A stretch of DNA of 64,000 bases from positions 96,001-160,000 of IMG/VR virus record IMGVR_UViG_3300028624_000003, one strand, 5' to 3'. The translations under genes and the position numbers were made by a program. Shown in pieces: positions 16,403-59,765 of this stretch; within the stretch, counting starts at the first letter, position 1; each line of letters begins with the position of its first letter. The notes under the pieces were generated by a model. The model was not told the DNA's origin. It saw only the letters and a program-made list of their open reading frames with translations, and did not search any database. The DNA is from a virus (taxonomy: Duplodnaviria > Caudoviricetes).

Positions 16403-16503
16403 ACATCGACCTCCTGAACAATAATAAAAATCACCACACTCGGTGGAGTTATTTCCTACACGCAATGGCATATCATGTGCTCAGATCCCAACGGATTTGT
16501 GCA

Positions 16504-16521
16504 TATATATCACTATTGTGA
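16504..16521 (+). promoter_or_regulatory. Putative early promoter of chimallin
   Basis: TATATATCAC-TATTG-TGA. Confidence 0.7.
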
Positions 16522-16609
16522 ACCCTGCTCTGATTGTTTGTGCAATTGGAGTAAAAACACTAACCAAGTTCTTGGCCAAGAGAACAAAACACAGTTACGG
16601 AGAGTTACC

Positions 16610-18238
16610 ATGGGTATCAAATTTGACGGCATCGACGACGACACCGTTGCTCAGGAATCCCAGCAGAACGTTGGTGGCGTCCATGACAACGTCAGCGCTC
16701 CTCGTCGTGACCTGGGTGCCGAACGTGCTGCTCGCAGCACGGCTACTGCAGGCCGCGGGTTCGAGCAGCTCATGTATTCGCTGCAGTCCTCGAACAAGCT
16801 CACCGAGACCGCAACCGGTTTCCTTGAAAGTGTGCGCAAGCAGGTCAGCAATCAGAACAAGAAGATTCAGTTCTTCGATCTTCCGAAGACCTGCACCTCC
16901 TTCTTCGTGGATGGTGCTGAATGCGTCGGCTTCGTCTTCGAAGAAGCGCTTCGTGAATCCCAGCTCCGCAAGGGTTCGGACACGATCCTCATGGAAGTCA
17001 TGAAGGACTTCGAGACTGCCACCATCGACAAGAAGGGTGCCGAGAAGATCCTCGACATCGTGATCGTCACCTCCGACAGCTACGGTAAGAGCAACGTCTG
17101 GTCCAATTTCGTCGTGAACACTCTTCGTTCGGACGACTACGCCAGCCTGAAGTTCACCAACATGAACGCCAACAACGTGCGGTACTCCCTCGTGAGCGAC
17201 CTTCGTCAGGTGAAGGAAATGTTCTCCGACATGTCTCCTCACGCGACACCGGCGCGCATCGACTTCGGTTGCTCGGTCACCATGGAAGTGATGCCCGACG
17301 ATCGCCGCGACTACACTCGCGAAGATCATGACGAAATCCCCATCGGTGTTATCGGCGGCTACACCCGCTTCTACCTGATCGATGACCTGCAGGATGTCAA
17401 GTTCCAGCCTGTCATCTGCATCAGTGACATCCAGTCGAACATCCGGAACCATCGTGTTCTGCCCATCCTGCTTGCCAGCTTCCTTGACTACGCGGTCAAT
17501 GCGAAGGGCTGGCTTTCCCCGTACAGCCAGTTCGGTCCCAACAACCCGAACCTCGGCAACCTCTGGATCGATCCCGAAACTGACCAGCCGGTTGAGCTGG
17601 AATCTCTGGATCGTCTCGACCGCTTCGTGCGTGCCAAGTTCCTCGAACCCGTGGTCGTCTGCGAAATCCAGCCTGGCCGTGCGGGTATCCCGTCGCTGTG
17701 GCGCTACGCCGATCCGAAGCAGCAGGGCTTCATGCTTCAGGATCTCGCAGAATACCTGAACGCTCCTCAGATCGCAGATCTCGGCGAGCTCTTCGTGCCT
17801 CACTACGAACATCTGTCGTACTCCGGCTACGTTCAGGACCGTGGGGTCTGGATCGATACCCGCGAAATCGACTACTTCCGTGCCATCGGCATCACCCGTG
17901 ATCGTGATCTGCGTGATCGGTTCATCATCCCCGAAGACGACATGTCCGCAGAAATCGACAACATCAAGGAACTCGGTTTCAAGGAAGTCCGTCGCATCTG
18001 GACCACGTACCCCTGCAGCATCGCTACCAACAGCCTCGAACAGATCCTTGTTCACATGGGTGCTGGTGGTGGTCTCGCGCTTCGTACCGACTACAAGCAG
18101 CGCATGACGGTGAGTGTTTCCAGCTACACCGACCTCGGTCGCGGCATGCGCGACATCCTGCAGCGCAACCAGGTTACCAACCGGTTCCCGCTGATGGAAC
18201 GTGGTCGACGCAGCCTGCGAAACCTCAGCGGTCGCTAG
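16610..18238 (+). CDS. chmA: Probable chimallin (phage nuclear shell protein)
   Basis: ATG 16610, 542 aa; immediately upstream of the nvRNAP catalytic beta-prime gene, as phiKZ gp54-gp55; strong C-ending codon bias; own promoter and terminator; PARIDF...IGGYTRF...FQPVICISDI...W...NLGNL resembles recalled ChmA motifs. Confidence 0.7.
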   Translation: MGIKFDGIDDDTVAQESQQNVGGVHDNVSAPRRDLGAERAARSTATAGRGFEQLMYSLQSSNKLTETATGFLESVRKQVSNQNKKIQFFDLPKTCTSFFVDGAECVGFVFEEALRESQLRKGSDTILMEVMKDFETATIDKKGAEKILDIVIVTSDSYGKSNVWSNFVVNTLRSDDYASLKFTNMNANNVRYSLVSDLRQVKEMFSDMSPHATPARIDFGCSVTMEVMPDDRRDYTREDHDEIPIGVIGGYTRFYLIDDLQDVKFQPVICISDIQSNIRNHRVLPILLASFLDYAVNAKGWLSPYSQFGPNNPNLGNLWIDPETDQPVELESLDRLDRFVRAKFLEPVVVCEIQPGRAGIPSLWRYADPKQQGFMLQDLAEYLNAPQIADLGELFVPHYEHLSYSGYVQDRGVWIDTREIDYFRAIGITRDRDLRDRFIIPEDDMSAEIDNIKELGFKEVRRIWTTYPCSIATNSLEQILVHMGAGGGLALRTDYKQRMTVSVSSYTDLGRGMRDILQRNQVTNRFPLMERGRRSLRNLSGR

Positions 18239-18329: not shown

Positions 18330-21300
18330 TTGAAGAAGTCCAGCGTGTTCAGTAAGAAGAATCTGATCAGACTGATCGATTTCGATAAACTGCATGCCGA
18401 TTCTCCTGGGGCAAGAGCACTCAATGACTCTGACTTAACAGGACGAAAACAAGCAGCAGAACGAATAAGTCAGGCGTTCTACGACATTGAAGCAGAACTA
18501 GGGTTTGTAGCTTCTTGTCAATGCAAAGAGTATCGAGGCAACTACTACGCGGGACATGTCTGCAAGATCTGTGGTACTGTGGTATCTACTGAATTTGCAG
18601 AAAATATCGAGCACGTGAATTGGCTGATCCTACCAGATCACGTCCCGCCTGTCATGCACCCGGTATTCTTTGCTGCACTGAACTCATTCCTGGGAAAAGT
18701 CAAAGTCAACGACGCAAAGCTGGGGAAGAAAAGTATCCCACTTCTGCAGTCTATACTGGATCCCAGTGAAGAACTATTCGAGCCAGTAAAGACACACATC
18801 AGAGCGCAAGGCTTCCGGTACTTCTACAAGCACTGCAAAGAAATCATGAACTTCTTCTTTGAAGTCTATCCAAAGACAAAAAGTAAGAAGGACGTCATAC
18901 ACATCCGTGCTCTTTATGAAGAGTACAAAGACAGGATGTGGGTCAAAAAGATACCGGCACTACATCCTACACTCACGCCACAGGCCAAAGAGTGCAGGGT
19001 ACGTACAATCGACCATGCTGCCGGTTACATCATGTCAGCAGCTGCTGACCTCTCTGCTCTATCCTACGAATCCAAGCGATGTATTACTGATTCGAAGTAT
19101 GTCGACCGTCAGCTATGGAAGATGTACGTCAACGTCATCAAGTACACTGAACAGATTCTCGAGAAGAAGTTCGGTGACAAATATGCACACGCTAGACGCC
19201 ACGTCATGGGCGCACGGATTCATTTTTCTGCCAGATCCGTCATCGTACCTATCGTAGAGCCTCACATGGGTGATGAGATTCATCTCCCATGGAAGATCGC
19301 ACTAGGTGGCCTCAAACTCGAGATTCTGAACATCTTGACCACTCGCAGTGTGATAGATGTAGAAGATGAACATGGCGAGCGTGTAAAGAGACCGCACACA
19401 ATCGCCGAGGCCACAGCCAAATATATGCGGGCACTCGTCGTATACGACGAAGACATCAAGAAGGTCATCGATCTCTTGATCAAAGAGTGTCCGTGTAAGG
19501 GTCTACCAATACTTTGCGGGCGCAACCCGACGCTCGTACTGGGTGCAATTCAGCTTCTGTACTTTACCAAGGTAAAGACGGATATGGCAGATGAAACCAT
19601 CGCCATATCTCCTCGAATCTGCAAAGCACCCAATGCTAAATACAACTCCTCGTTGCACATCGCCCCTAGCAGGAGGCGTACATGCAGCAGTTCGTCAATT
19701 TACCTGGAAAATACTCAGGATATTCAATATCCGCGGACGGTAGAATTCTCGACAACTCTACCGGACAGTTGGTAGTTCCTACCAAAGGTAAAAATACTCC
19801 GTACTACGGGGTCACAATGCGTCTAGTTGGTGATGCTCGAAGTACTACACAACTAGTGCATCGACTGATCGCATTGGCCTTTGTTCCAAATGAAACAGGA
19901 ATATCAGCAGACGAGTTACAGGTCAATCACATCAATGGGAACAAACTCGACAACCGTCCATGTAATCTTGAGTGGGTCACTCAGCAACAAAATTGCGCGC
20001 ATGCGTATCGAACAGGTTTGCGAAACGACAATAAACCTATTCGCATGGTTGCAGAGAATACAGGTGAGACTAGTATAGTCTACAGCTTATCCGAAGCTGC
20101 TAGACTGCTAGGTGTGCACCCTGCCTCACTTCATGAGCACATGAACACAGAACGTCGACAATGTTTACCATATCGTGGATACTACGTAACTTATCACGAC
20201 GATCGTCTAGATCGTTTTCAGAATAGGGTACGGCGTATGTGCGAAGGGAGTTGGTAAATTGGCTCGCGCAGAAGTAATTCTGTGACGATAATCTCCTTAA
20301 TTGCTGGGAACCCCTTAGAGCTCTCGTAGCTACAACGTAAGGATGAAATATGCCTAAGCGTGACAGCTCAAAAATACGAGAGATTGGGCAATCAGCAGCC
20401 AAGCTCCGAATAGGAGAAGGTTCAACGACTATTCCTGAAATGGAAGTACAGACTAAGCAGTCTGGGAATAGGAGACACCCTACTGGGGTGAAGATATAGT
20501 CTCATCTTTAGTGAAAGCTAAAGCTGCAGGTAATGCTGCGAGTACCATCTAGCGAATGGTACTGAAGATAATGGATTTCGATTCACAGGTCGAAATAAAA
20601 TCCCGGAATAAAGCAGGGACGGTCTGCTCGACCCAATCTGAACCGAAGGCTACTAGGGATAGTAGTCAGGGGCAACGCGTAGTCTCAGGGCTAGAACAGC
20701 TATCAGGGACCACGAGGCCGGGACATTCGAGAGTATTCGCACTGAGGAGAACTAGTGGAGAATACTGTGGAAATTCCTGGGTATCCAGGATACCGAGCAT
20801 CACGAGACGGACACGTCTGGAGTACATACAGCAATAAGTGGTTGTGCGAGATGCTGCACCGGCGAGGATACCCTCAGGTGTTGCTGAAAATCGACAAATC
20901 GACCTACAGATTGCGGTATGTTCATCGGTTAGTAGCACTGGCATTTATCCCAAATCCAAAACTGATGACTCAGGTCAATCATATCGATGGCAATAAACAG
21001 AACAATTGCGTCGATAATTTGGAGTGGGTAGATAACCTAGAGAATGCGCGACATGCGATGGCTCATGGGCTGATGCCACATGCAAAAATCGATGAGCCGA
21101 CAGCTCACGTCATTTGTCAGAGATTGGAGAATGGCGAAAAAGTGGTGGATATTGCAAGGGACTTAAATGTACCCTACTATACCGTACACGCCATTCGGCT
21201 AGGTAGAAACTGGAAAGAAGTATCTACTCAGTACACAATCCCTGGGAAAAGAAAACGTAGAGTTGTCTTTACACCAGAAGAAGTCAGACACATCTATTAC

Positions 21301-37234: not shown

Positions 37235-39406
37235 ATGTCTTACGGTGAAATACCCAAGCCGGAATATTGGGAAGAAGCGGTAAAACAATATCCGCTTCTG
37301 AAAGATCTATCACTGGATCCCCGGCTTCTGGGCACCAAAGCAAATTTGTGCCCATTTCCCCAGCACAACACATCTCAGCGCATGTCGATGTTCTCCAGTA
37401 ACATCGTACAGGCTCCCATTCCTGAAGGAGCGGAAATTCCCGCAGTATGCTCCGGTTTTGAGCGGCACTTCATGGACTATACGTTCAATGACACGAGAAT
37501 GACTCAGGCTGGTACTACCATTGCCTACATCCAGAAGTATCGTACTCACGTAGGACAAGATCCTATCAAGTTTTCTCCGTCTGCTGTACTGGTATACATC
37601 GGTGATGAAGACGGTCTCGTCCACTGCATGGAAATTACCAGATATACGAAATGCTCGGACGGTTTTGGTTATCCGAACGTAGTCAAGGAACAATTGCTCC
37701 GGGAAGGTATCGGGATTCCTGCAGGAACTGTGATTGCGCATTCTCCTGCGGTACAGAACTCGAAGTATTGCCTCGGGGTAAACGCTAACGTCTGCTACAT
37801 GTCTGCAAAGGAGACAGTAGAAGACGCATTCGTCATCTCTGACGAATTAGCACGGAAGTTCAAATCCACTGGCATACGTACGCTGGTGATAGATATTGAC
37901 AAAAACATGGTTCCCCTGAACCTGTACTCCGAAGACAATATCGACTACAAGTTCATGCCAGATCTGCACGAACGTGTACGTGACGATGGAATCATTTGCG
38001 CATTCCGTACAGTGGATGATGCATCGATGATCGGTGACATGACAGATCGTGCACTGTGCCAGCCACAACATCCGCACGACGAAGTCAAGTTTGCAGAAGC
38101 TGGAGCGGTCATCATCGACATTGATGTATTCCGCAACGGAAGTGGCAGATCTCCTCAGTACAAGACACCTCCGCACATGTTCGCTCAGCTTGACAAGTAC
38201 ATCTCGAATGGTCTCGACTTCCATCGCAAGGTGGTTGACGTATATCACTCGGAATGCGTCAAGAAAGGACGCGATCCTGCACCTGAGTTTGTATCTCTGG
38301 TCACCAGATCGATGAGCATACTGGCTGCCGCAGGTAACTCTGAAGACAGATCCAGGACTCCTCTGCGAACTGCACCCAAGTTCTCCTTTAAAGGAGAACA
38401 GATCAAGTTTATCCGCATGGTGATCACTTACAAGTATGACAACACTGTATCTCTCGGCCACAAGACTTCTGGACGAGAAGGCGCCAAAGGCGTCATCAGT
38501 GCAATCGTACCGAAGAAGCACATGCCGGTGGATGGGTACGGTAACGTAGCAGATATCGTGATCTCTTCGGAGACACCTATCAACCGTATGAACTACGGTC
38601 AGCTCTACGAACAGCACATCAACTTCATCGCCAATCGGGTACTGGCAAAGTACTCACGTGAAGCGTATGAAGAGCGTCAGCGCATGGATGGACTGATCGA
38701 GTTCTATGCTGACGTCAACCCGTCATTCGCTGACATCGTTGCAAATAACGTAGAGACTCCTCGTAGGGTATATACGTATCTTCGTGAGCTGGATCGTCGT
38801 GGGTGGCCGGTAATCGTGGCACCTCCTGGACTAGATCGATTGCGTCCTAGCTGGGTACTATTCATGCAGAATAAGTATCAGGCAATACCCACTCCTGTCA
38901 GCTTCGATCTGTTGAGATTCAGAAGTGGTGGTGATCCTGAAGTTATTCGTCGGGTGCACACATATCGCCCGGTGATGATTGCCAAAAAGTATATCTACAT
39001 CCTCTGCAAAATTCCGCATGCCAGATCGTGTGGTATGACTTACGTCAACCAGATCGGGGCACCCGTACGATCGAAAGCAAAGGCGCAATCTCCTCTTGGT
39101 CTGGTACCTATCAGGATAGGAGAAGACGAAAATCGAAATCTTGCTATGGCGCTCGGTAATAAGCTGGCATACCGGCTTCTGTCGCTTTATGCTAACTCTC
39201 CGACCGCAACAGACGAACTGGCTTTTCAACTTCTCACGTCATCCAAACCTACAAGGTTGGATTGGCTAGACATGAATGATGAGTTGATCTCACGACACAA
39301 CGTCATGGGTACAATATCTCGTCACATGCTAGCCACTTGCGGTATCGATATTTCTCCGGAAAACACGATGCTCCGTAAGGACGAAGAAGCGAGGTTCCGC
39401 AGATGA
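37235..39406 (+). CDS. nvRNAP beta subunit C-terminal part (phiKZ gp71-73-like), no intron
   Basis: HNTSQRMSMFSS; GVNANVCYMS...EDAFVIS; GHKTSGREGAKGVI; NRMNYGQLYE; PIRIGEDE; promoter variant at 37180. Confidence 0.9.
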   Translation: MSYGEIPKPEYWEEAVKQYPLLKDLSLDPRLLGTKANLCPFPQHNTSQRMSMFSSNIVQAPIPEGAEIPAVCSGFERHFMDYTFNDTRMTQAGTTIAYIQKYRTHVGQDPIKFSPSAVLVYIGDEDGLVHCMEITRYTKCSDGFGYPNVVKEQLLREGIGIPAGTVIAHSPAVQNSKYCLGVNANVCYMSAKETVEDAFVISDELARKFKSTGIRTLVIDIDKNMVPLNLYSEDNIDYKFMPDLHERVRDDGIICAFRTVDDASMIGDMTDRALCQPQHPHDEVKFAEAGAVIIDIDVFRNGSGRSPQYKTPPHMFAQLDKYISNGLDFHRKVVDVYHSECVKKGRDPAPEFVSLVTRSMSILAAAGNSEDRSRTPLRTAPKFSFKGEQIKFIRMVITYKYDNTVSLGHKTSGREGAKGVISAIVPKKHMPVDGYGNVADIVISSETPINRMNYGQLYEQHINFIANRVLAKYSREAYEERQRMDGLIEFYADVNPSFADIVANNVETPRRVYTYLRELDRRGWPVIVAPPGLDRLRPSWVLFMQNKYQAIPTPVSFDLLRFRSGGDPEVIRRVHTYRPVMIAKKYIYILCKIPHARSCGMTYVNQIGAPVRSKAKAQSPLGLVPIRIGEDENRNLAMALGNKLAYRLLSLYANSPTATDELAFQLLTSSKPTRLDWLDMNDELISRHNVMGTISRHMLATCGIDISPENTMLRKDEEARFRR

Positions 39407-41388
39407 TTATTCGTCAAGAAGACATGACGTACGAGATGGCTAAACGCATAGTCGAACGCGACAGAAACCCTCAAGGATGGGTTGATGTAGATTTCGTCGA
39501 TGGCGTACGTGACCACCTCGTTCAGCAAGTAGTCATACATCTCCCCATTTGGGAAATCTACCGTAAACTGGGAATACCAGTAAGACAAGCGCACTTTTTC
39601 GACTTCAAGTCGTTTAGCAAAAGTGTTTGGCAGCACCTACTCACCATGGTGTATACCGAATACTATCTGACAGCACCAGATACTGAACTGGACACATTCG
39701 CTCAGTATATTTGGGAAGCTACGAACTACATCGACGAGTTTGGTACAACCGAACTCGCAGAGCATCAGTGCAGCATATCCATCGTGGACTTGGCTGAGAT
39801 CATCGATGATCCAGTAGTCAAGACCATAATCGATGGAGTCAATCTGGACACGAGGTTCGGTACCAACTTGGTTGAGCAGAGCATCACCTCCGCTCGAGAC
39901 AAGTTATGCAAAGTACTTAGTACCAGAGGAGCTGTCAAAAATCAGGCACTCCTCTACTGGCAGCAGGCAGGATTGTTGAATCCTAACCAGCTCCAACAAA
40001 GTCTACTTGCGCTTGGTCTTCGTACAGAAATCAACGACCGAGTAATCCAGCGTCCAGTCTACGGATCTGCAGCCTCAGGTATGCGAGATATCGTAGACAT
40101 GGCGATCGAGCAGCAAGCAGGTAGAAAAGCTGCATCGATGAACCACGAAGCTATCCAGACTTCACAGTACTGGGGACGCAAAGCACACATTCTCGTATCC
40201 GCATTGCGCAAAACGTACTACACCGATTGTGGTGCACACAAGACGATTGTGCAGCACATCTCAGCCAGTAACGCTAAGAACTATATCGGCAAGTTCATCC
40301 GTCAGAACGATGGAAGTTTTGTGCCTCTCACACACAGGAACATCGGCCAGTTCGTCGACAGTAATGTCGATATGGTGACAGTCGGTGGATGCCGTCACAC
40401 AGATGGAGTATGTGCAGTATGCGGTGGCTTGCTGCTCAGAAACATTTCGGTCAGTGGCTTCACTGTGAAGTATCCTAAGTTCTTGTGTGGTTTCGACTAT
40501 GACGAGAGTGATGGTATCAACATCGGCATCAACTCTGCAGCTGAAACAGTCTCGCAGATTTCGCAGATGATCCTGTCCACCAAGCACCTGATTCGAACTT
40601 TGTCGCAGGTATATGTCGTACCTAACGAAGCCCTGCATTTGTTCGTCAGGACCGCACACGGAATAAACCTAACTCCTCAGTTCAGAAAGAGTGGAAATTG
40701 GAAACTCGGTGTGTACACCGAAGACATGTATGGAGCGCAGACAGACCTACTCGAGCTTACCGAAGAGACTACAATCTCTGAGGAACGATTCAGTAGTATC
40801 TCTTCGCTTCTCGTGAAAGATGCAGAAGGAATAATTTCCGAGGTTCCGCTCGTAGTCGAAGGCCAAAAGCCATTCTTCTCGATGGAGTTCCTCCTGTACA
40901 TGAAGGATCATTACACCGAACTTGAACTCGATGATAACGTGCTCTGGATCCCCATGGAGGGTATTCCCGATCTACCAGTTCTTCGAGCTGCGATCGTGAA
41001 TGACTCCACGTATGCGTACGTTTTGTCGATCATCAAGTTCCTTGAGAGCAAAATCCTCTCCAACTATACTTCGTTCGATAAAGCGCTCAATCACTTTGCC
41101 GAACTGGTATGGTCGAAGGTACCCAAAGTCAATATCATGCATCTCGAGATCATGTTGCGTGCTCACATGGTCGGTGGAGTAGATGACTGGGACATACCTG
41201 TGGTCGATGATTTGAATCGCGTAACTTTTGCCAGTTCAAAAGACGTGATACATAATCGCAACTACTCGGGTCAGTTCTCATTCGAAGAGCACAAACGTAG
41301 ATTCGCAGACCCCAAGATGTATCTCATCCCGAGATCTCAAGGTGTGTTTGACAGAAACTACGGTATATGTGGTGACTGGAAACGATAG
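39403..41388 (+). CDS. nvRNAP beta-prime C-terminal subunit (phiKZ gp74-like)
   Basis: TDCG...C...GVCAVCGG Zn site; NIGINSAAETVSQISQMILSTKH; NIMHLEIMLRA. Confidence 0.85.
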   Translation: MIIRQEDMTYEMAKRIVERDRNPQGWVDVDFVDGVRDHLVQQVVIHLPIWEIYRKLGIPVRQAHFFDFKSFSKSVWQHLLTMVYTEYYLTAPDTELDTFAQYIWEATNYIDEFGTTELAEHQCSISIVDLAEIIDDPVVKTIIDGVNLDTRFGTNLVEQSITSARDKLCKVLSTRGAVKNQALLYWQQAGLLNPNQLQQSLLALGLRTEINDRVIQRPVYGSAASGMRDIVDMAIEQQAGRKAASMNHEAIQTSQYWGRKAHILVSALRKTYYTDCGAHKTIVQHISASNAKNYIGKFIRQNDGSFVPLTHRNIGQFVDSNVDMVTVGGCRHTDGVCAVCGGLLLRNISVSGFTVKYPKFLCGFDYDESDGINIGINSAAETVSQISQMILSTKHLIRTLSQVYVVPNEALHLFVRTAHGINLTPQFRKSGNWKLGVYTEDMYGAQTDLLELTEETTISEERFSSISSLLVKDAEGIISEVPLVVEGQKPFFSMEFLLYMKDHYTELELDDNVLWIPMEGIPDLPVLRAAIVNDSTYAYVLSIIKFLESKILSNYTSFDKALNHFAELVWSKVPKVNIMHLEIMLRAHMVGGVDDWDIPVVDDLNRVTFASSKDVIHNRNYSGQFSFEEHKRRFADPKMYLIPRSQGVFDRNYGICGDWKR

Positions 41389-49173: not shown

Positions 49174-49352
49174 CAAAACGTCTATTGCTACTGCCACTAG
49201 CAATGGATGAAAATAACAACGAGTGGTACCTAGACCCACTAGGTACCACTCACTAAAATTCGAGGTATTATTTATTTTTTGGTAAGATATAAAATCGACG
49301 TGTATGGTATGTCCGTAAGGATATCTATCAGAAAATCATAATGGAGTTATTC

Positions 49353-52300
49353 ATGCACACACTCATTTGTACGGTAAAGCGTGATGGTAAAACTGAAGTA
49401 CCTTTTGATGCAAACAAAATCTCTGTGGCCATTTCCAAGGCCGCACATGCATCCGGTGAACCGGTTGATGCCGCGTCATGTACCGCCAAAGTGCTGCTCG
49501 CTCTGTCGGAAGCATCCGTTGATGGTAAGGTAGGAGTCGAAACGATTCAGGACGAAGTCGAACGAGTTCTGATGATGAATGATCACTACCTGACAGCAAA
49601 GAAGTACATCATTTACCGTCAGCATCGTGCCGACGGTCGTGCGTTCAAAATCTCCACTTTGACCGACCTCGTAGATGAATATCTTGGAAAGTGCGAATGG
49701 TCCATCAAAGAAAACTCAAACATGGACTTCTCTCTTCAGGGTCTTAACCAGTATGTGACAGCCAAGGCGATGAGTGCGTATTGGTTGGCAAAGATATTCC
49801 CGCCTGATGTGCGTGAAGCTCATAATAAGGGTACGATCCACGTACATGACCTCAATCTTCTTGCACCGTACTGCTGCGGCTGGGATTTGAGACAACTTCT
49901 CCTTGTCGGATTCAGCGGGGTCGAAGGATCCAATGACTCCAAGCCAGCAAAGCATTTCCAACAGATACTGGGACAGTGCTGGAACTTCCTTTTCACACTT
50001 CAAGGAGAAGCTGCGGGTGCACAGGCATTCAGTAACTTCGATACCTACCTCGCTCCGTTCATCAGGTTTGACAAGCTTTCGTACCGTGAAGTGAAGAAAG
50101 CTCTTCAGACATTTTTCCACAACATGACTACCAAAACACGTGTCGGATTCCAGTGCGTACCTGATACATACACGTGTCTCACTCCTGAAGGTTGGAAGTA
50201 CCATCACGAACTGCAGCCAGGTGACGAAATTTACGTCTTTGATGTGAATACTGGGCAGATCCGGTTGGATGTACTTACTCACGTGAATACGTACGAGTAT
50301 CGTGGGGAGATGATCCAGTTTACTGGTCGTAAGTTGAAGATGATGACGACCCCCAATCACAGGACGATCCGTCGCAAGTTCAACTCCAACAAATACGTGA
50401 TCGAGACTTCTGGTGATATATACGAGAAGTACGACACTCCAATCGATATTCCTCTGGCGGGTCACGTGAATCGTCAAGGCGTGGACATGACAGATGATGA
50501 GATCCGTCTGCTCGGTTGGGCGCTTACTGATGCTCACATGGACAATCATGGCACACGCATTCGTATCTATCAATCTCCCAAAAAGTACGCTCACGAAATT
50601 GCTCGTCTACTTACCAGACTCAATGCCGATTGGTATGCAGCTCCTGCTGGTGGTGGTGGCTATGGAGATGAAGTGTACAGATTTGACGTCAAGGGTGATC
50701 TTGCCCGAATGATACTCGACTACACTGCCGGATGTCGTGAGGCAATTCCGCTGCACTTCATGAACAACGCATCAGTGGATCAGATTCATGTGTTGCTGGA
50801 TACAATGATTCTTGCCGACGGCACGATCGAAGAAAGTGGACGTATTCGGATAGCCAAGAAAAATGACTACATGGCAGAATGCATACAAACTCTGCTGGTG
50901 CTGTCTGGATACGGTTCTACAAGAAATCGTCGTCTGTCTTGTACCGACACAGTGTCTGTATACAAGAAGCCGATCGCTACGACAAGAACAGAAGTCGTGG
51001 ATTATGAGGGTGTGGTTTGGTGTCCTACGACGGATACTGGCACATTCATCTGCAGAGCTGAAGACGGTACACCGTTCATCACGGGAAACTCTCCGTTTAC
51101 AAATATCACAATGGACTTGACTGTACCTCGGTACATGAAAGATGAACCAGTCATTCGTGGTGGTGAATTTACCGACTACACTTACGGTGAGTTCCAAGAA
51201 GAAATGAATATTTTCAATCGTGCACTTTGCGAAGTCATGATTGAAGGCGATGCATCTGGGCGCCAGTTCTCTTTCCCCATTCCTACATACAGCATCACCA
51301 AGGATTTCGACTGGGACAACGAAGTTCTCGAACCTCTTTGGAAGCTGACTGCGATGTACGGGGCACCCTACTTTACCAACTACGTGAATTCGGATCTCAA
51401 TCCGGAAGACGTACGGTCCATGTGTCCGCTTCACCCCGAAGAAAAGATTCATGTCAAGATAAATGGTTCATGGATGAACATGACCATCTACGCAGTGTAC
51501 TCCTTCTTAGCGAACAAGATGGATAAGTCCGAAGTGTACGTGATGCACAAGGGTAAAGAGATACCTGTGACTGGCGTTTCTGTACATGCTGCGGAGACGT
51601 TTGTACGTATCAGGACTGTACTCGATCCTGATGGAGTCATATTCGAGGGCGGCCATCACCAACCGTTCCGTACTGACGGTCTTGGACCTATGAAAAAGTC
51701 CACAGCTCGGTCGTTGAGAGTCGGGGAATACCTGCCTTACAGTGAATCTACTCGGGAAAACGTGGGATGTCCTGACGACTGCTTTGCTCAGGATGGTTAC
51801 GTGTTTGCAAAGATCACCCACAAGGAAATTCTGGGCAAGATTCATCCTTACGCTTACTGCATCGAAGTTGGTACGGAAGACCACTTGTTCGATCTGGAGC
51901 CCGGTGGTCTCGTGACGCACAACTGCAGACTGCAACTCGATCTTACGACGTTACGTCGTCGTGGTGGTGGTCAATTTGGTGCCAATCCTTTGACTGGTTC
52001 CATCGGTGTCGTCACTCTCAACCTGCCTGCCATGGCTTACAACGCAAAGGGTGACAAATCCAAGTTCTTCGAAGCAATCATCGATGGAATGGAAATGGCC
52101 CGAGAGATCTTGACTCTGAAGCGAGAGTTTGTCGAGAAGAACGTGACCCTTGGGCTGTACCCCTACACCAGACGGTATCTTGAAGATGTCGCGATGGTGG
52201 CTGAGAATGTCAAGGGAAAGAAAGAGTACATGTACAACCACTTCTCTACCATTGGGATAGTCGGTGGTAACGAGGCATGTCTCAACCTTCTTGGCAAGTC

Positions 52301-52922
52301 CATCATGGATGATGAAGGGAAGGATCTCATGATCGAAGTACTGACGATGATGCGCGAGCGTTGCCAGAAGTACGCAGAAGAGACAGGGTATCCGTTCAAC
52401 CTCGAAGCTACTCCTGCAGAAGGTGTAAGCTATCGTTTGGCTAAGCTTGATCAGGACCAATACCCTGACATTATCACGGCATCCAGTTGTGTATGCGGTG
52501 CAGATCCTTTCTACACCAACTCCACACAGGTTCCTGTCAATGCGACCACGGATATCGTGGAAGTCTGCGACAACCAAGACGATTTGCAGACACTGTACAC
52601 TGGCGGTACCGTGATGCACGTCATGCTCGGAGAAGCCGTAAAGGATCCTACTGTTGTGAAGAACTTGGTACGAAAGCTCTGCTCCAGCTATCGTATCCCG
52701 TACTTCACGATCTCTCCCAACTATTCCGTGTGTGCCAATCACGGATATCTGAAGGGAGTACAGGATTCGTGTCCCAAATGCGGTGGAGATACTGAGATCT
52801 ACTCTCGTGTGGTAGGTTTCTATACTCCTGTCAGTAGATGGAACAAGGGCAAGGTTCAGGAGTTCTCGATGCGTAACACGTACGAGACCAGCGCAGTCCC
52901 GCTTGGCGAAGAAGATAAGTAA
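49353..52922 (+). CDS. nrdD: Anaerobic (class III) ribonucleotide reductase with ATP cone and two inteins
   Basis: ATP cone VKRDG..FDANKI; HVHDL..PYCCGW; GEAAGAQAF; EATPAEG; YTGGT; CxxH...CPKC; YSRVVGF glycyl-radical loop. Confidence 0.95.
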   Translation: MHTLICTVKRDGKTEVPFDANKISVAISKAAHASGEPVDAASCTAKVLLALSEASVDGKVGVETIQDEVERVLMMNDHYLTAKKYIIYRQHRADGRAFKISTLTDLVDEYLGKCEWSIKENSNMDFSLQGLNQYVTAKAMSAYWLAKIFPPDVREAHNKGTIHVHDLNLLAPYCCGWDLRQLLLVGFSGVEGSNDSKPAKHFQQILGQCWNFLFTLQGEAAGAQAFSNFDTYLAPFIRFDKLSYREVKKALQTFFHNMTTKTRVGFQCVPDTYTCLTPEGWKYHHELQPGDEIYVFDVNTGQIRLDVLTHVNTYEYRGEMIQFTGRKLKMMTTPNHRTIRRKFNSNKYVIETSGDIYEKYDTPIDIPLAGHVNRQGVDMTDDEIRLLGWALTDAHMDNHGTRIRIYQSPKKYAHEIARLLTRLNADWYAAPAGGGGYGDEVYRFDVKGDLARMILDYTAGCREAIPLHFMNNASVDQIHVLLDTMILADGTIEESGRIRIAKKNDYMAECIQTLLVLSGYGSTRNRRLSCTDTVSVYKKPIATTRTEVVDYEGVVWCPTTDTGTFICRAEDGTPFITGNSPFTNITMDLTVPRYMKDEPVIRGGEFTDYTYGEFQEEMNIFNRALCEVMIEGDASGRQFSFPIPTYSITKDFDWDNEVLEPLWKLTAMYGAPYFTNYVNSDLNPEDVRSMCPLHPEEKIHVKINGSWMNMTIYAVYSFLANKMDKSEVYVMHKGKEIPVTGVSVHAAETFVRIRTVLDPDGVIFEGGHHQPFRTDGLGPMKKSTARSLRVGEYLPYSESTRENVGCPDDCFAQDGYVFAKITHKEILGKIHPYAYCIEVGTEDHLFDLEPGGLVTHNCRLQLDLTTLRRRGGGQFGANPLTGSIGVVTLNLPAMAYNAKGDKSKFFEAIIDGMEMAREILTLKREFVEKNVTLGLYPYTRRYLEDVAMVAENVKGKKEYMYNHFSTIGIVGGNEACLNLLGKSIMDDEGKDLMIEVLTMMRERCQKYAEETGYPFNLEATPAEGVSYRLAKLDQDQYPDIITASSCVCGADPFYTNSTQVPVNATTDIVEVCDNQDDLQTLYTGGTVMHVMLGEAVKDPTVVKNLVRKLCSSYRIPYFTISPNYSVCANHGYLKGVQDSCPKCGGDTEIYSRVVGFYTPVSRWNKGKVQEFSMRNTYETSAVPLGEEDK
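50154..51089 (+). mobile_element. Intein 1 in NrdD with LAGLIDADG endonuclease (312 aa)
   Basis: GFQ|CVPDTYTCLTPEGWK...TTPNHR...LLGWALTDAH...LLDTMILADGT...VWCPTT...FITGN|SPFTN. Confidence 0.9.
51426..51923 (+). mobile_element. Mini-intein 2 in NrdD (166 aa if Pro-1; starts at 51423 if Cys-1)
   Basis: DVRSMC|PLHPEEKIHVK...AYCIEV...LVTHN|CRLQLD. Confidence 0.85.
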
Positions 52923-53451: not shown

Positions 53452-54207
53452 ATGGGTTCGCGTTTTCTTGTTCGTGTGTACTATACTTCCAATCACAAAC
53501 ACGACATGGTCATGCGTCAGTTCCTGTGGCGGTACAAAGATCGTACAGTAGCTCACAGTACAACAGACGGTATCGAATACTACGATTTCGATATCTGCAA
53601 TGACGACTTCAACATCGATTCGATGCAACAAGACTGCGAACGAGTCACGCACTCCTCGAAGTGGGTCAAGGGTATTGATCTGAAAAATCTCCTGATCACG
53701 GTTCATACGGAACAAGGGAAAGCTGTCTTCACGTTCGGGAATCTCCCACAAGAATCCATCCCTGTCGAATTCCGGTTCACGCCTCCTCGTACGGTATCAG
53801 AACAGCATGAGGCGAATCTCATCGAGCAGTTCGACCTGCTGGTACGCAACCGGCTGGAAATGACCGATCTCCTTGACAACAATCCGAATCCGGTCGTACT
53901 GCTCTGCGGGTCCACCAAGTACTACGAAGACTTCGACCTCATTGAGAAGTGCCTTACACTCAATGGAGTGATCACTCTCAGTACAGGTCGAGTGTTCGGA
54001 CATCGTGGCGACATCGACATGTCCGGACCGGTTAAGAAGAGTCTCGATCGGCTTCACTTCAAGAAGATCGAACTGTGCGATGCTGTGTTTATCGTCAACC
54101 CCGAGCTCCGCATCGGCCTGTCGACATGTGATGAACTGCACTACGCAAAAGCACTCGGAAAACGAGTCATGTACATGATTAACCCGGTGGAATGCACTGA
54201 AGATTAG
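53452..54207 (+). CDS. Protein with a C-terminal nucleoside deoxyribosyltransferase-like domain
   Basis: VVLLCGSTKY...LDRLHFKKIELCDAVFIVN...IGLSTCDELHYAKALGKRVMY. Confidence 0.7.
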   Translation: MGSRFLVRVYYTSNHKHDMVMRQFLWRYKDRTVAHSTTDGIEYYDFDICNDDFNIDSMQQDCERVTHSSKWVKGIDLKNLLITVHTEQGKAVFTFGNLPQESIPVEFRFTPPRTVSEQHEANLIEQFDLLVRNRLEMTDLLDNNPNPVVLLCGSTKYYEDFDLIEKCLTLNGVITLSTGRVFGHRGDIDMSGPVKKSLDRLHFKKIELCDAVFIVNPELRIGLSTCDELHYAKALGKRVMYMINPVECTED

Positions 54208-58532: not shown

Positions 58533-59765
58533 TTATTTTTTGTTAAGCCACCACTCGAGAGACTTCTTCAGTCGAATATGTTCTTCTAGACATTTTCTCA
58601 GTTCAGTATTACCCGCCGAAGTGATATGATTTCTCTTCATCAGCGAATCACTATTCATTGCGTAGAGATCGTCTATGTTCTCTACACAAAAACGAATCCA
58701 CTGTTCTGTCTTTTCTTTGCTGACTAATGGAGCTAGAATTGCGTATGGGCTAGGACACTCATGAATCTGTTCGGGAAGAGGACCCAGTCCAATGTAGTCA
58801 GGAAGTCGATCTTTGTGTGTCAGTCCGAGATCAATGAGAGAATCTACGTAGTTCACAAAATTCATGAACACATGAGTAGGTTCTATTAGTCGAATCGCTT
58901 CGAGATACTGTCTCTTGGAAAACGTAGCAATACGCATTACTCTCTTTGTGACTGTCGTATATTCCTTTTCTACTCCGAGATCTTCGAATGTGATTTCTTC
59001 GGAGTCATCGAAGAATGGCCCAGAGTTACCTACTTCAATCCCATCACGTGTAGGGTTGCCCACACGAATAGGAAACGTACGGAAACTGAGGATGACATTA
59101 CCACAGTACTTGGGATGTAATCCCAGTTCACCGAGTATTGTCGCAGGAAGTACCGATCTCGATGTGCAGTGAGGATAGTTCAGACCATGGTTTAGATCCA
59201 GTCCCAATCCTTGACCAGTTTCTACCATTACACGGTAACCAGGGATCTCTTGAATATCACGACGAATGTCGTACTTACGAACGTACTCAGTGAGTCTAGG
59301 GTCGTGCTCTGCTACTAATCCAGTACGCATTATCTTGGCAGCTCTAGCTGCTCCAGATCCGGATTGAGTAGATGCTATTTTCTCGATGCCACCATGCGCA
59401 GCTTCTACTTCTTTGTCTTTCTGTGTGATGATGGCAGCACGAGGATGAATAAATACTCTGCCGTCGTCGATGTTGAACTCATCCATCTCCTTCATCAGTA
59501 GATCATAATCGATGACTGAATCTGCTGAGAAGTATACCCCGCATCTGTCATGAATTATGGCTGCCACTGGAATGAGATGGGTGACGTGTTTCTTGCCATT
59601 CCAGTAAAAGGTATGTCCTGCATTTGGAGAAGTAGTGCTACATGCCAGATGTACGATAGGAGCATCCATAGCTATTCTACAAGCAAGAGCTCCTTTACCT
59701 GTACTACCGAACGATCCATCGATGATCATGTTGACTTTATTAGGAAGAAGAAATGATTCGAACAT
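58533..59765 (-). CDS. purZ: PurZ-type N6-succino-2-amino-dAMP synthetase (adenylosuccinate synthetase paralog)
   Basis: DGSFGSTGKG (Ser where PurA has GDEGKG); SPNAGHT; ASTQSGSG; YPHCTSR; RTFPIRVGN; SGPFFDDSEE; EYTTVTK; FMNFVNY in place of PurA TKLD; GGAGG RBS. Confidence 0.85.
   Translation of the reverse strand: MFESFLLPNKVNMIIDGSFGSTGKGALACRIAMDAPIVHLACSTTSPNAGHTFYWNGKKHVTHLIPVAAIIHDRCGVYFSADSVIDYDLLMKEMDEFNIDDGRVFIHPRAAIITQKDKEVEAAHGGIEKIASTQSGSGAARAAKIMRTGLVAEHDPRLTEYVRKYDIRRDIQEIPGYRVMVETGQGLGLDLNHGLNYPHCTSRSVLPATILGELGLHPKYCGNVILSFRTFPIRVGNPTRDGIEVGNSGPFFDDSEEITFEDLGVEKEYTTVTKRVMRIATFSKRQYLEAIRLIEPTHVFMNFVNYVDSLIDLGLTHKDRLPDYIGLGPLPEQIHECPSPYAILAPLVSKEKTEQWIRFCVENIDDLYAMNSDSLMKRNHITSAGNTELRKCLEEHIRLKKSLEWWLNKK

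What the first reader, a model, noticed from the sequence alone, without database searches (positions are those of the whole stretch)
58533..59765. PurZ in a chimallin-encoding jumbo phage: candidate Z-DNA plus nucleus double protection
Seen: PurZ signatures GSTGKG, SPNAGHT, RTFPIRVGN, SGP..DDSEE, TTVTK and NFVNY, in the same window as probable chmA and multisubunit RNAP genes, a DUF5664-like diphosphohydrolase, a MazG-like enzyme and NrdDG. Known: PurZ converts dGMP and Asp to the dZTP precursor, with host PurB and kinases completing the pathway, in S-2L, phiVC8 and SH-Ab 15497, which are small non-nucleus phages. I know of no characterised Z-genome nucleus-forming phage. Inference: full or partial A-to-Z substitution protects DNA at stages the shell does not cover, and phage RNAPs and DNA polymerase must handle Z. 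No DatZ-type HD dATPase or DpoZ is visible in this window.
Basis: partly seen in the sequence, partly recalled or inferred. Interest (0 to 1): 0.92.

Follow-up and report, generated by a model that had tools for sequence, protein, structure and literature searches.

The report
PurZ gene in a nucleus-shell jumbo phage
A complete 221-kb wastewater phage of the phiKZ type, which encodes the protein shell that encloses its DNA in a "phage nucleus", also carries a genuine PurZ, the enzyme small phages use to replace adenine with 2-aminoadenine (Z); whether its DNA really contains Z has not been shown chemically.

Summary
Observation confirmed. Window 58533-59765(-) is an intact 410-aa PurZ. It has Ser at the E. 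coli PurA Asp13 position (GSTGKG) and has lost the guanine-specific Asp333 (NFVNY). Its best solved matches are S-2L and phiVC8 PurZ. It nests in the PurZ clade (SH-aLRT 98), apart from PurZ0 and PurA. The contig is a complete 220,982-bp phiKZ-like genome. The 587-aa ORF at 16475-18238 is a very divergent chimallin: sequence searches miss it, but a profile-profile match (98.9%), the AlphaFold/Foldseek result (top nine hits all chimallin, E down to 7e-16) and synteny all agree. Four more IMG/VR records combine PurZ, this chimallin family and a split RNAP beta, and an independent sludge contig spans the gene, so the contig is not chimeric. The helper set is unusual. No DatZ, MazZ/DUF550, DpoZ/PolA, PurB or adenosine deaminase was found. 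Present are a stand-alone DUF5664 protein (a family shown to hydrolyse dATP and dGTP), a generic MazG and a divergent family-B polymerase. Caveat: this genome's allele has Met277 where all 55 other aligned relatives have Arg (E. coli Arg305); its 99%-identical cluster representative and three other environmental strains have Arg. Z in the DNA and double protection remain inference. The scan had already noted PurZ in other jumbo phages, including a 273-kb phiKZ-like one.

The parts
58533..59765 (-). purZ: 2-amino-deoxyadenylosuccinate (dSMP) synthetase, 410 aa. The catalytic core is residues ~10-340, followed by a ~70-aa C-terminal extension shared only with the sister phage.
   Evidence: PF00709 E=1.6e-24; phrog_1211 E=8e-54; PDB 7odx E=4e-45 and 6fm1 E=5e-38. 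Ser21 aligns with E. coli Asp13 and Asn305 with Asp333. Inside the PurZ clade, SH-aLRT 98. Met277 stands at a conserved Arg.
6070..6885 (-). Stand-alone DUF5664 (dGTP_diPhyd_N) protein, 271 aa. Candidate dATP/dGTP diphosphohydrolase that would remove dATP and supply dGMP.
   Evidence: PF18909 E=2.3e-13 over residues 75-149, with no PF04447 domain. phrog_801 'dATP/dGTP pyrophosphohydrolase' E=1.6e-6. BLASTP E=1e-4 to the N-terminal domain of the SH-Ab 15497 protein next to PurZ. Full-length ortholog in G010 (44.5% identity over 229 aa) and a PF18909 hit in G003. Activity of the family is taken from PMC12884076.
45853..46254 (+). MazG-type nucleoside triphosphate pyrophosphohydrolase, 133 aa. 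A generic PF03819 lineage, not MazZ.
   Evidence: PF03819 E=1.2e-11; phrog_229 E=8.7e-31. S-2L MazZ itself matches PF04447, which finds nothing in this genome. Found only in G000 among the five PurZ+chimallin genomes.
16475..18238 (+). Divergent chimallin (ChmA, phage-nucleus shell protein). The true start is probably near 16610, because the cluster representative covers residues 46-587.
   Evidence: phmmer, BLAST and a 9-sequence chimallin HMM all fail. The family has 326 metagenomic relatives. hhalign of that family against a chimallin alignment gives probability 98.9%, E=2.8e-17 over 436 columns; reversed controls give 0.3%. AF2 model pLDDT 87, pTM 0.82. Foldseek PDB top 9 hits are all chimallin, E=6.6e-16 to 3.6e-11, TM 0.56-0.63; the next hit is E=0.055.
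15236..16471 (-). Conserved, divergently transcribed neighbour of chimallin (phrog_3938, function unknown).
   Evidence: phrog_3938 E=2.7e-13. A gene of ~360-380 aa sits in the same position and orientation in Ea35-70, Goslar, RP12, Proteus phage 10 and RSL2.
18330..19775 (+). phiKZ gp55-like RNA polymerase beta-prime-type subunit, directly downstream of chimallin. First part of the gene: other scan notes say it continues through introns to about 21744.
   Evidence: phrog_2987 E=3.8e-70. The order chimallin then RNAP subunit is shared with PhiPA3, phiKZ, Ea35-70, Goslar, RP12, Proteus phage 10 and RSL2.
37235..39406 (+). Split RNA polymerase beta subunit (C-terminal part type).
   Evidence: PF00562 E=1.7e-15; phrog_3295 E=9e-128. 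About 28% identity to PhiPA3, phiKZ-like, Xanthomonas, Serratia and Erwinia jumbo phages.
39403..41388 (+). Second split RNA polymerase subunit.
   Evidence: phrog_3015 E=2.6e-78.
49341..52922 (+). Anaerobic ribonucleotide reductase NrdD with ATP-cone and an intein-type LAGLIDADG insertion.
   Evidence: PF13597 E=2e-171, PF03477 E=8e-17, PF14528 E=5.5e-5.
53452..54207 (+). Probable NrdG activase (radical SAM).
   Evidence: One Radical_SAM (E=1.9e-20) plus Fer4_12 protein occurs among the window's genes. Assigning it to this ORF, which lies just downstream of NrdD, is inference from position and size.

Best explanation
The ORF encodes a true PurZ. By homology it condenses dGMP with aspartate, using ATP or dATP as phosphate donor, to give N6-succino-2-amino-2'-deoxyadenylate. 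No phage PurB or nucleotide kinases were found, so host PurB and host kinases would finish the route to dZTP, as in S-2L and phiVC8. The gene sits in a complete 221-kb phiKZ-like phage that builds its replication compartment from a very divergent chimallin, transcribes with split multisubunit RNA polymerases and replicates with a divergent family-B polymerase. The most likely mechanism has four steps. (1) The stand-alone DUF5664 enzyme, perhaps helped by the generic MazG, hydrolyses dGTP to dGMP to feed PurZ, and hydrolyses dATP to dAMP. (2) PurZ also consumes dATP as its phosphate donor. (3) dZTP made in the cytoplasm crosses the shell. (4) A non-selective family-B polymerase inserts Z opposite T, as the S-2L PrimPol does. 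The DNA would then be at least partly Z-substituted. Shown here: enzyme family, diagnostic residues, clade placement, chimallin fold, genome completeness, recurrence of the gene combination, and presence or absence of helpers. Inferred: enzyme activity, Z in the DNA, degree of substitution, the role of DUF5664, and the benefit alongside the nucleus.
For: PurZ identity; Asp13 to Ser and loss of Asp333; placement in the PurZ clade at SH-aLRT 98, separate from PurZ0 (99) and from Asp13-type PurA (100). Catalytic residues equivalent to Lys16, Asn38, His41, Thr129, Arg143, Gln224, Thr239, Thr301 and Arg303 are retained. Chimallin: plus synteny. phiKZ backbone: PhiKZ_MCP, phiKZ_IP, PhiKZ_VTX, Peptidase_S80, divDNApol and split RNAP. 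The genome is complete and circularly assembled. The combination of PurZ, this chimallin family and split RNAP beta recurs in G001, G003, G004 and G010, whose RNAP beta is 36-64% identical to the query, and PurZ-type motifs are intact in G001, G003 and G004. An independent 16.8-kb sludge contig spans PurZ and its flanks, and the DNA occurs in 10 or more studies. Of 15 listed strain substitutions inside PurZ, 9 are synonymous. The DUF5664 partner is present and conserved in three of the five genomes. A stand-alone DUF5664 enzyme hydrolyses dATP, dGTP and dUTP to dNMPs, with kcat about 10-fold higher for dATP (PMC12884076). S-2L PurZ uses dATP as donor, and the S-2L polymerase is non-selective (PMC8342488).
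Against: There is no chemical evidence for Z. DatZ was not found with PF01966, PF12917, PF13023 or a local DatZ HMM over six frames. PF04447 (MazZ/DUF550) was not found. PolA/DpoZ was not found. According to PMC12884076, PurZ phages mostly carry DatZ plus MazZ-2 or DUF550, so complete dATP exclusion is not assured here. DUF5664 is missing from G004, which is complete, and from G001, which is 73% complete. The window's allele has Met277 where 55 of 56 aligned family members have Arg (E. coli Arg305), which may cripple aspartate binding in this particular genome. PurZ is absent from the more distant chimallin-family genomes G014-G016. The chimallin phages' PurZ genes are interleaved in the tree with those of non-chimallin large phages, so the gene is mobile and not a fixed trait of the shell-forming lineage.
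Confidence: 0.6

Rival explanations
1. PurZ is active, but without DatZ or a Z-selective polymerase the DNA is only partly or conditionally Z-substituted. The phage would make a mixed A/Z genome whose Z fraction depends on host dATP levels, as a supplement to the shell and not a full base replacement.
For: No DatZ, MazZ/DUF550, DpoZ or adenosine deaminase in any of the five genomes. In E. coli the full datZ-mazZ-purZ triad was the set used to obtain substantial conversion (PMC8342488). The Wayne DUF5664 enzyme is slower than the Dut-type dATPases. DUF5664 is absent from the complete genome G004.
Against: PurZ-type enzymes consume dATP themselves, and DUF5664 prefers dATP. Every PurZ phage whose DNA has been analysed so far is reported as fully substituted (from memory of the S-2L, phiVC8 and SH-Ab 15497 papers). 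An uncharacterised dATPase could hide among the many genes of unknown function.
Confidence: 0.25
2. In this particular genome PurZ is a crippled allele or a consensus error, because of Met277 at the Arg305 position. The sequenced variant would make little or no Z, while the phage population at large carries the functional Arg allele.
For: Met at a column that is Arg in 55 of 56 aligned PurA, PurZ0 and PurZ sequences, and 'RR' in all 82 homologs where the motif could be read. The 99%-identical cluster representative P0002 has Arg277. Runs X2, X3 and X7 all read Arg (AGA or AGG) at this codon. From memory, E. coli Arg303-Arg305 form the aspartate-binding loop.
Against: The reading frame and all other catalytic residues are intact. 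One nucleotide separates ATG from AGG, so this may be a rare polymorphism or a sequencing error with no bearing on the lineage. The effect of Arg to Met in a PurZ has not been measured.
Confidence: 0.1
3. The enzyme is a PurA-like auxiliary metabolic gene that boosts ordinary purine (AMP/dAMP) supply, or acts on another substrate, and has nothing to do with Z.
For: Large phages do carry real PurA-type genes: the homologs in the 735-kb uncultured phage and the 283-kb Staphylococcus phage have GDEGKG and keep the Asp333-type motif.
Against: The query has Ser at the Asp13 position, which is conserved in 99% of the PurA-group sequences and replaced by Ser in 100% of 147 phage PurZ/PurZ0 sequences (PMC12884076). 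It lacks the guanine-binding Asp333. It nests deep inside the PurZ clade, far from the PurA-type phage genes.
Confidence: 0.04
4. The contig is a chimera of a small Z-phage and a jumbo phage.
For: None found.
Against: The assembly closes on a 127-bp terminal overlap and CheckV rates it 100% complete. Four other records carry the same combination of genes. An independent 16.8-kb contig at 95-99% identity spans PurZ and both flanks. GC content is unremarkable across the region.
Confidence: 0.01

Closest known systems
[quoted passage not shown]
   Same: Same enzyme family and the same diagnostic residues: GSTGKG with Ser in place of Asp13, and NFxNY in place of the guanine-binding TKLD. Identity is 32-37% over ~330 residues. 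Same dependence on host PurB, since no phage PurB was found.
   Different: Those are 39-45-kb sipho- and podoviruses with a compact Z-cluster (DatZ, MazZ or DUF550, often DpoZ) next to purZ. Here purZ stands alone on the opposite strand in a 221-kb chimallin phage, with no DatZ, MazZ or DpoZ. The DUF5664 and MazG genes lie 52 kb and 12 kb away. The protein also has an extra ~70-aa C-terminal extension.
PurZ of Ochrobactrum phage vB_OspP_OH (41 kb) and Flavobacterium phage MaF61 (168 kb)
   Same: These are the closest named relatives in the tree. They share a sub-clade (SH-aLRT 96) with the query's metagenomic 'large-phage' group. MaF61 even has the identical FMNFVNYV motif.
   Different: Identity is 36-37%. 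Neither is a chimallin phage as far as annotated. MaF61 has GSSGKG and sits on a very long branch.
PurZ0 (Gordonia phage Archimedes, PDB 7VF6; Arthrobacter and Microbacterium phages)
   Same: Ser in place of Asp13 and the same overall fold. PurZ0 phages of the Wayne type use a stand-alone DUF5664 enzyme, as proposed here.
   Different: PurZ0 has GSEAKG and keeps the Asp of the guanine-binding motif. It forms a separate clade (SH-aLRT 99) and comes with DutZ, DmtZ and DpoZ-1, none of which was seen here.
Chimalliviridae (phiKZ, PhiPA3, 201phi2-1, Goslar, RSL2 and others)
   Same: Chimallin fold, the gene order chimallin then RNAP subunit, split virion and non-virion type RNAP subunits, phiKZ-type capsid, internal head proteins, S80 protease and divergent family-B polymerase.
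   Different: This chimallin is only ~10-12% identical to the solved ones and cannot be found by BLAST, phmmer or a chimallin HMM. RNAP beta is ~28% identical. No tubulin was detected with PF00091. No published member is reported to carry PurZ, in the library searched.
Stand-alone DUF5664 dNTP diphosphohydrolase of Arthrobacter phage Wayne (PMC12884076)
   Same: A DUF5664 domain without a fused DUF550, in a genome that has a PurZ-type gene. The characterised enzyme converts dATP, dGTP and dUTP to dNMPs.
   Different: The protein here is 271 aa, with ~70 N-terminal and ~120 C-terminal residues of unknown function. It sits beside tail-fibre genes. Its activity and its lineage (DUF5664-1 or DUF5664-2) were not determined.
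AR9/PBS1-type jumbo phages (dU-DNA with multisubunit RNAPs)
   Same: A jumbo phage with phiKZ-type split RNAPs whose polymerases must copy a non-canonical base (from memory; PBS1 dU-DNA is mentioned in PMC12697855).
   Different: The replaced base is T to U, not A to Z. Those phages are not known to encode chimallin (from memory).

Membership tests
PurZ (2-amino-deoxyadenylosuccinate synthetase) | Homology to the adenylosuccinate synthetase fold (PF00709) | tested here: met
   PF00709 E=1.6e-24; phrog_1211 E=8e-54; PDB 7odx E=4e-45
PurZ (2-amino-deoxyadenylosuccinate synthetase) | Catalytic Asp13 of PurA replaced by Ser (100% of 147 phage PurZ/PurZ0 sequences, PMC12884076) | tested here: met
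   Ser21 aligns with E. coli Asp13; motif GSTGKG
PurZ (2-amino-deoxyadenylosuccinate synthetase) | Placement inside the PurZ clade, separate from PurZ0 and PurA | tested here: met
   Quick ML tree: PurZ-type clade SH-aLRT 98, PurZ0 99, PurA outgroup 100. The careful bootstrap run did not finish, and no archaeal PurA outgroup was available.
PurZ (2-amino-deoxyadenylosuccinate synthetase) | Loss of the guanine-specific (N/T)KxD Asp, consistent with an ATP/dATP donor | tested here: met
   NFVNY; Asn305 aligns with E. coli Asp333. PurZ0 keeps the Asp.
PurZ (2-amino-deoxyadenylosuccinate synthetase) | All other catalytic and substrate-binding residues intact | tested here: inconclusive
   Equivalents of Lys16, Asn38, His41, Thr129, Arg143, Gln224, Thr239, Thr301 and Arg303 are present. 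The Arg305 equivalent is Met277 in this allele, but Arg in P0002 and in strains X2, X3 and X7.
PurZ (2-amino-deoxyadenylosuccinate synthetase) | Activity on dGMP + Asp, and Z present in virion DNA | not testable with these tools
   Needs an enzyme assay and LC-MS of virion nucleosides.
Canonical Z-cluster (purZ + datZ + mazZ/DUF550, with or without dpoZ) | DatZ-type HD dATP triphosphohydrolase | tested here: not met
   PF01966, PF12917, PF13023 and a local DatZ HMM over six frames are all negative. S-2L DatZ itself matches these Pfam models.
Canonical Z-cluster (purZ + datZ + mazZ/DUF550, with or without dpoZ) | MazZ/DUF550 (PF04447) (d)GTP diphosphohydrolase | tested here: not met
   PF04447 finds nothing in G000 or its relatives, although it does match S-2L MazZ and the SH-Ab 15497 protein. 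Only a PF03819 MazG and a DUF5664-only protein are present.
Canonical Z-cluster (purZ + datZ + mazZ/DUF550, with or without dpoZ) | DpoZ (family A polymerase) | tested here: not met
   PF00476 is negative in all six genomes searched. The polymerase is PF20286 divergent family B, E=1.2e-116.
PurZ0 | GSEAKG P-loop and a retained guanine-binding Asp | tested here: not met
PurA | Asp13 general base and the NKxD guanine motif | tested here: not met
Chimallin / nucleus-forming phiKZ-like phages (Chimalliviridae) | A protein with the chimallin fold | tested here: met
   AF2 model pLDDT 87; Foldseek top 9 hits are all chimallin, E=6.6e-16 to 3.6e-11, TM 0.56-0.63, ~520-570 aligned columns
Chimallin / nucleus-forming phiKZ-like phages (Chimalliviridae) | Sequence homology to known chimallins | tested here: met
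   Only at profile-profile level: hhalign 98.9%, E=2.8e-17, against 0.3% for the controls. phmmer, BLAST and the chimallin HMM are negative.
Chimallin / nucleus-forming phiKZ-like phages (Chimalliviridae) | Split multisubunit RNAP genes and phiKZ-type structural core | tested here: met
   phrog_2987, phrog_3295 and phrog_3015; PhiKZ_MCP, phiKZ_IP, PhiKZ_VTX, Peptidase_S80
Chimallin / nucleus-forming phiKZ-like phages (Chimalliviridae) | PhuZ tubulin | tested here: inconclusive
   PF00091 gives no match. PhuZ is divergent and is not universal in the family (from memory).
Chimallin / nucleus-forming phiKZ-like phages (Chimalliviridae) | A DNA-enclosing compartment seen in infected cells | not testable with these tools
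   Needs a cultured host and microscopy.

The most novel reading that the evidence does not exclude
A sub-clade of nucleus-forming jumbo phages replaces most or all of its adenine with 2-aminoadenine using a minimal kit, PurZ with or without a stand-alone DUF5664 dATP/dGTP diphosphohydrolase, and without DatZ, MazZ or DpoZ. In that case a divergent family-B replicase and two multisubunit phage RNA polymerases copy and transcribe Z-DNA inside a chimallin shell through which cytoplasm-made dZTP must pass. Base chemistry and compartmentalisation would then be stacked as two independent anti-defence layers.
Probability: 0.35. Interest if true: 0.85.

Novelty: new variant of a known kind. Interest (0 to 1): 0.7.

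Why it matters
All Z-DNA phages with published chemistry are small sipho- or podoviruses with a compact Z-cluster. Nucleus-forming phages are thought to rely on the chimallin shell, not on base modification, to evade DNA-targeting defences. A PurZ retained across five diverged chimallin genomes suggests the two strategies can be combined. Several questions then become testable. What does the shell fail to protect against: injected DNA before the shell closes, or DNA during packaging? Can phiKZ-type multisubunit RNAPs and the divergent family-B polymerase use Z templates? How is dATP excluded without DatZ? Does dZTP cross the shell? The work also brings to light a large chimallin family (326 metagenomic relatives) that ordinary sequence searches do not recognise, so nucleus-forming phages are likely under-counted in metagenomes. 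The phage is common in wastewater and activated sludge, which makes sampling feasible.

Tried and rejected
- Chimallin by phmmer against the PDB, tblastn against phages, BLASTP against PhiPA3 gp053, a PhiPA3 gp053 search of the genome, and a 9-sequence chimallin HMM: all negative. The word-indexed homolog search returned only the protein's own cluster. A PDB search with the A1 profile was also empty. Only profile-profile and fold comparison worked.
- ORFs 54579-56909 and 32062-33594 as alternative chimallin candidates: no PDB hits.
- S-2L DatZ and MazZ as single queries against the genome: nothing.
With RNAP beta alone: no usable patterns.
- An archaeal PurA outgroup could not be fetched. The careful bootstrap tree did not finish in time, so the quick SH-aLRT trees are reported.
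- Sigma-70 promoter scan around purZ: 5 sites against 4.9 expected, so uninformative; phiKZ-type promoters are not covered by the tool.
- Metatranscriptome run X18: five short contigs at 100% identity, two of them inside purZ. DNA carry-over cannot be excluded, so this is not counted as expression.
- Adenosine-deaminase substitute for DatZ, a lead from earlier scan notes: PF00962 absent. Phage PurB: PF00206 absent. Tubulin: PF00091 absent.
- G002, the 264-kb contig binned as Clostridium sp.: it has a PurZ of the same clade but no close split RNAP beta and no chimallin hit, so it is a different kind of large phage.
- Complex prediction was not used. The second structure job, for PurZ, was judged redundant.
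Full report
**1. The observation**

Window 58533-59765 (minus strand) is an intact 410-aa ORF with an ATG start. The protein matches Pfam PF00709 (E=1.6e-24) and PHROG 1211, '2-aminooxy adenylosuccinate synthetase' (E=8e-54). Among solved structures it matches best the PurZ of cyanophage S-2L (7odx, E=4e-45) and of Vibrio phage phiVC8 (6fm1 and related entries, E=5e-38). Next come archaeal PurA (5k7x, E=7e-29) and 7vf6 (E=5e-28), which PMC12884076 identifies as the PurZ0 of Gordonia phage Archimedes. Bacterial PurA scores far lower.

**2. PurZ, PurZ0 or PurA?**

I aligned the protein with S-2L, phiVC8 and SH-Ab 15497 PurZ, four PurZ0 proteins and E. coli PurA, and mapped residues onto E. coli numbering. 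Ser21 stands at Asp13. PMC12884076 reports Asp13 conserved in 99% of the PurA-group sequences and replaced by Ser in 100% of 147 phage PurZ/PurZ0 sequences.

- The P-loop is GSTGKG, as in PurZ. PurZ0 has GSEAKG and PurA has GDEGKG.
- The guanine-binding TKLD of PurA (Asp333) reads NFVNY, as in PurZ. PurZ0 keeps the Asp.
- The equivalents of Lys16, Asn38, His41, Thr129, Arg143, Gln224, Thr239, Thr301 and Arg303 are all present.

A maximum-likelihood tree of 55 sequences (quick search, LG+C20, SH-aLRT) was rooted on Asp13-type PurA. PurZ0 forms its own clade (99). The query sits inside the PurZ-type clade (98), in a sub-clade (96) with Ochrobactrum phage vB_OspP_OH, Flavobacterium phage MaF61 and a large set of metagenomic sequences. 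That sub-clade is sister to the group holding phiVC8, S-2L, SH-Ab 15497, PMBT28 and Bm1. The weak homologs in a 735-kb uncultured phage and a 283-kb Staphylococcus phage are ordinary PurA types with GDEGKG. Membership in PurZ is therefore well supported.

**3. A caveat in this allele**

Codon 277 is Met. That column is Arg in 55 of 56 aligned PurA, PurZ0 and PurZ sequences. The pair at this position reads 'RR' in all 82 metagenomic homologs where the motif could be read. It aligns with E. coli Arg305, which from memory belongs to the aspartate-binding Arg loop. The 99%-identical cluster representative P0002 has Arg277. Contigs from three independent environmental runs read AGA or AGG (Arg) at this codon. 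The lineage allele is therefore Arg. The window's Met is a rare variant, a hypomorph or a consensus error.

**4. The genome**

The window is bases 96001-160000 of a single 220,982-bp IMG/VR contig. Its ends overlap by 127 bp, and CheckV rates it 100% complete. No record in the phage collection matches it at the DNA level. Pfam and PHROG scans of the predicted proteins of 70 aa or more give a phiKZ-type backbone:

- split RNAP subunits (phrog_2987, 3295 and 3015);
- PhiKZ major capsid protein, phiKZ internal head proteins, PhiKZ vertex protein and the S80 prohead protease;
- a divergent family-B DNA polymerase (PF20286, E=1e-116) and a divergent DnaB;
- ThyX, dCMP deaminase, NrdD with an intein, a radical-SAM activase, NAD-dependent ligase and a type II topoisomerase.

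RNAP beta is only ~28% identical to its homologs in PhiPA3, the phiKZ-likes and jumbo phages of Xanthomonas, Serratia and Erwinia.

**5. Chimallin**

The 587-aa ORF at 16475-18238 sits directly upstream of the phiKZ gp55-type RNAP subunit and next to a divergently transcribed gene of ~400 aa. That is the chimallin position in PhiPA3, phiKZ, Ea35-70, Goslar, RP12, Proteus phage 10 and RSL2. Direct sequence searches fail. phmmer against the PDB, tblastn against phages, BLASTP against PhiPA3 gp053 and an HMM built from nine chimallins all give nothing.

An exhaustive HMMER search found 326 metagenomic relatives of 500-590 aa. A 77-sequence alignment of them matches the chimallin alignment by hhalign at probability 98.9%, E=2.8e-17, over 436 columns. 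Reversed-sequence controls give 0.3%. An AlphaFold2 model (pLDDT 87, pTM 0.82) retrieves chimallin as its top nine PDB matches (Goslar, 201phi2-1 and PhiPA3 PhuN), with E from 6.6e-16 to 3.6e-11, TM 0.56-0.63 and ~520-570 aligned columns. The tenth hit is at E=0.055. The phage therefore encodes a very divergent chimallin. Whether a nucleus forms in infected cells cannot be tested here. No tubulin was detected with PF00091.

**6. Not a chimera, and not a one-off**

IMG/VR holds 453 PurZ-type loci. Among the largest contigs, four besides this genome carry PurZ together with the same chimallin family and a split RNAP beta:

| Record | Size | CheckV completeness | RNAP beta identity to query |
|---|---|---|---|
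| G001 | 200 kb | 73% | 64% |
| G010 | 87 kb | 33% (fragment) | 47% |
| G003 | 254 kb | 93% | 41% |
| G004 | 287 kb | 100% | 36% |

 PurZ in G001, G003 and G004 has GSTGKG and the NFxNY-type motif. Three more distant chimallin-family genomes (G014-G016, 237-302 kb, 88-100% complete) lack PF00709.

In the PurZ tree the chimallin-phage genes fall in one 'large-phage' clade but are interleaved with genes from contigs that lack chimallin. G004, for example, groups with a 146-kb non-chimallin phage at SH-aLRT 97. The gene has therefore probably moved among large phages.

The DNA of the window recurs in activated-sludge, wastewater and digester metagenomes from at least ten studies. A 16.8-kb contig from an independent sludge sample spans purZ and both flanks at 95-99% identity. 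Of the 15 listed strain substitutions inside purZ, 9 are synonymous.

**7. Helper genes**

The canonical partners are missing.

- DatZ was not found with PF01966, PF12917, PF13023 or a local DatZ HMM over all six frames. S-2L DatZ does match those Pfam models, so the search works.
- PF04447, the family of S-2L MazZ and of DUF550, finds nothing.
- No family-A polymerase, no PurB and no adenosine deaminase were found.

What is present:

- A 271-aa protein at 6070-6885 whose residues 75-149 match PF18909 (DUF5664, E=2.3e-13). It aligns with the N-terminal domain of the SH-Ab 15497 DUF5664-DUF550 protein. It has a full-length ortholog in G010 and a PF18909 hit in G003, but none in G001 or G004.
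- A generic PF03819 MazG at 45853-46254, found only in this genome among the five.

PMC12884076 shows that a stand-alone DUF5664 enzyme (phage Wayne) hydrolyses dATP, dGTP and dUTP to dNMPs, with kcat about ten-fold higher for dATP. PMC8342488 shows that S-2L PurZ itself consumes dATP, and that the S-2L polymerase is non-selective, so specificity comes from the nucleotide pool.

**8. Most likely mechanism**

DUF5664, perhaps with MazG, turns dGTP into dGMP and removes dATP. PurZ condenses dGMP with aspartate at the expense of ATP or dATP. Host PurB and host kinases finish dZTP. The divergent family-B polymerase inserts Z opposite T inside the chimallin compartment. I put the PurZ assignment at about 0.9 and any substantial Z content in the DNA at about 0.6. 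Full replacement is less certain because there is no DatZ. The idea that Z protects the DNA at stages the shell does not cover is reasonable, but it is pure inference.

**9. Novelty**

Searches of the paper library for PurZ with jumbo phage, diaminopurine with chimallin, 2-aminoadenine with jumbo, and Chimalliviridae with adenylosuccinate found no report of this combination. The most recent survey describes seven groups of Z-phages and mentions neither jumbo phages nor phage nuclei. Earlier notes of this same scan, which are AI notes and not independent evidence, recorded PurZ in other jumbo phages, among them a 273-kb phiKZ-like one. I class the finding as a new variant of a known kind: a known enzyme in a new genomic and cell-biological setting with a non-canonical helper set.

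Noticed in passing
window 58935-58937 (codon 277 of purZ, minus strand): Met in the window's allele at a position that is Arg in every other PurA, PurZ0 and PurZ sequence examined (E. coli Arg305). Three independent environmental strains and the 99%-identical cluster representative have Arg.
   Followed up: yes
window 16475-18238, and 326 metagenomic relatives (P0122-P0271 and further hits): A large chimallin family that BLAST, phmmer and a chimallin HMM cannot detect. Nucleus-forming phages may be much more widespread in metagenomes than sequence-based surveys show.
   Followed up: partly
window 49341-52922: The NrdD gene is 1193 aa. A LAGLIDADG-type insertion around residues 486-531 lies between the ATP-cone and the C-terminal catalytic part, consistent with an intein.
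   Followed up: no
window 58533-58740 (purZ residues ~340-410): A ~70-aa C-terminal extension is shared only with the sister phage (L007, P0003). It has no Pfam match, and the other ~350-aa PurZ proteins lack it.
   Followed up: no
L120 and L121 (IMG/VR records G010 and G009): Only the C-terminal half of PurZ (a 168-aa frame, 58% identical to residues 185-334) lies in one ORF. The gene may be split by an intron or insertion, or truncated, in these relatives.
   Followed up: no
window 58487-58500 and 59903-60036: Strain differences in independent assemblies. A 361-nt replacement lies just downstream of purZ in run X3. A 123-132-nt deletion lies in the intergenic region upstream of purZ (removing the small ORF at 59881-60036) in runs X2 and X3.
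   Followed up: no
window 57470-58126: A DUF4326 protein (E=2.9e-18) lies near purZ. The sister fragment L006 also has DUF4326 next to a NADAR-domain gene, and dUTPase and thymidylate kinase genes close to its purZ.
   Followed up: no
L048 (CAZHOE010000001.1, 1,000,106-bp contig binned as Micavibrio sp.): A PurZ-type gene (GSTGKG, NFVNY, 42% identical) lies inside a 1-Mb contig. It could be a prophage, a very large phage or a cellular PurZ.
   Followed up: no
L041 (Flavobacterium phage MaF61, PQ858689.1, 118051-119394): A cultured 168-kb phage carries a PurZ-type gene (GSSGKG, FMNFVNYV) between the prohead scaffold and terminase genes. It is a ready experimental system for Z-DNA in a large phage.
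   Followed up: partly
G000 outside the window (gene groups g001-g053 and g054-g108): Thrombospondin type 1 repeat domains (PF19030, E ~1e-14; PF00090) occur in two phage proteins. This is unusual for a bacteriophage.
   Followed up: no
L003/L046 (GCA_964369695.1, 263,784-bp contig binned as Clostridium sp.): A 264-kb phage-like contig sits in a bacterial MAG. It has a PurZ of the same clade but no chimallin and no close split RNAP. It is probably a different jumbo phage that was mis-binned.
   Followed up: partly
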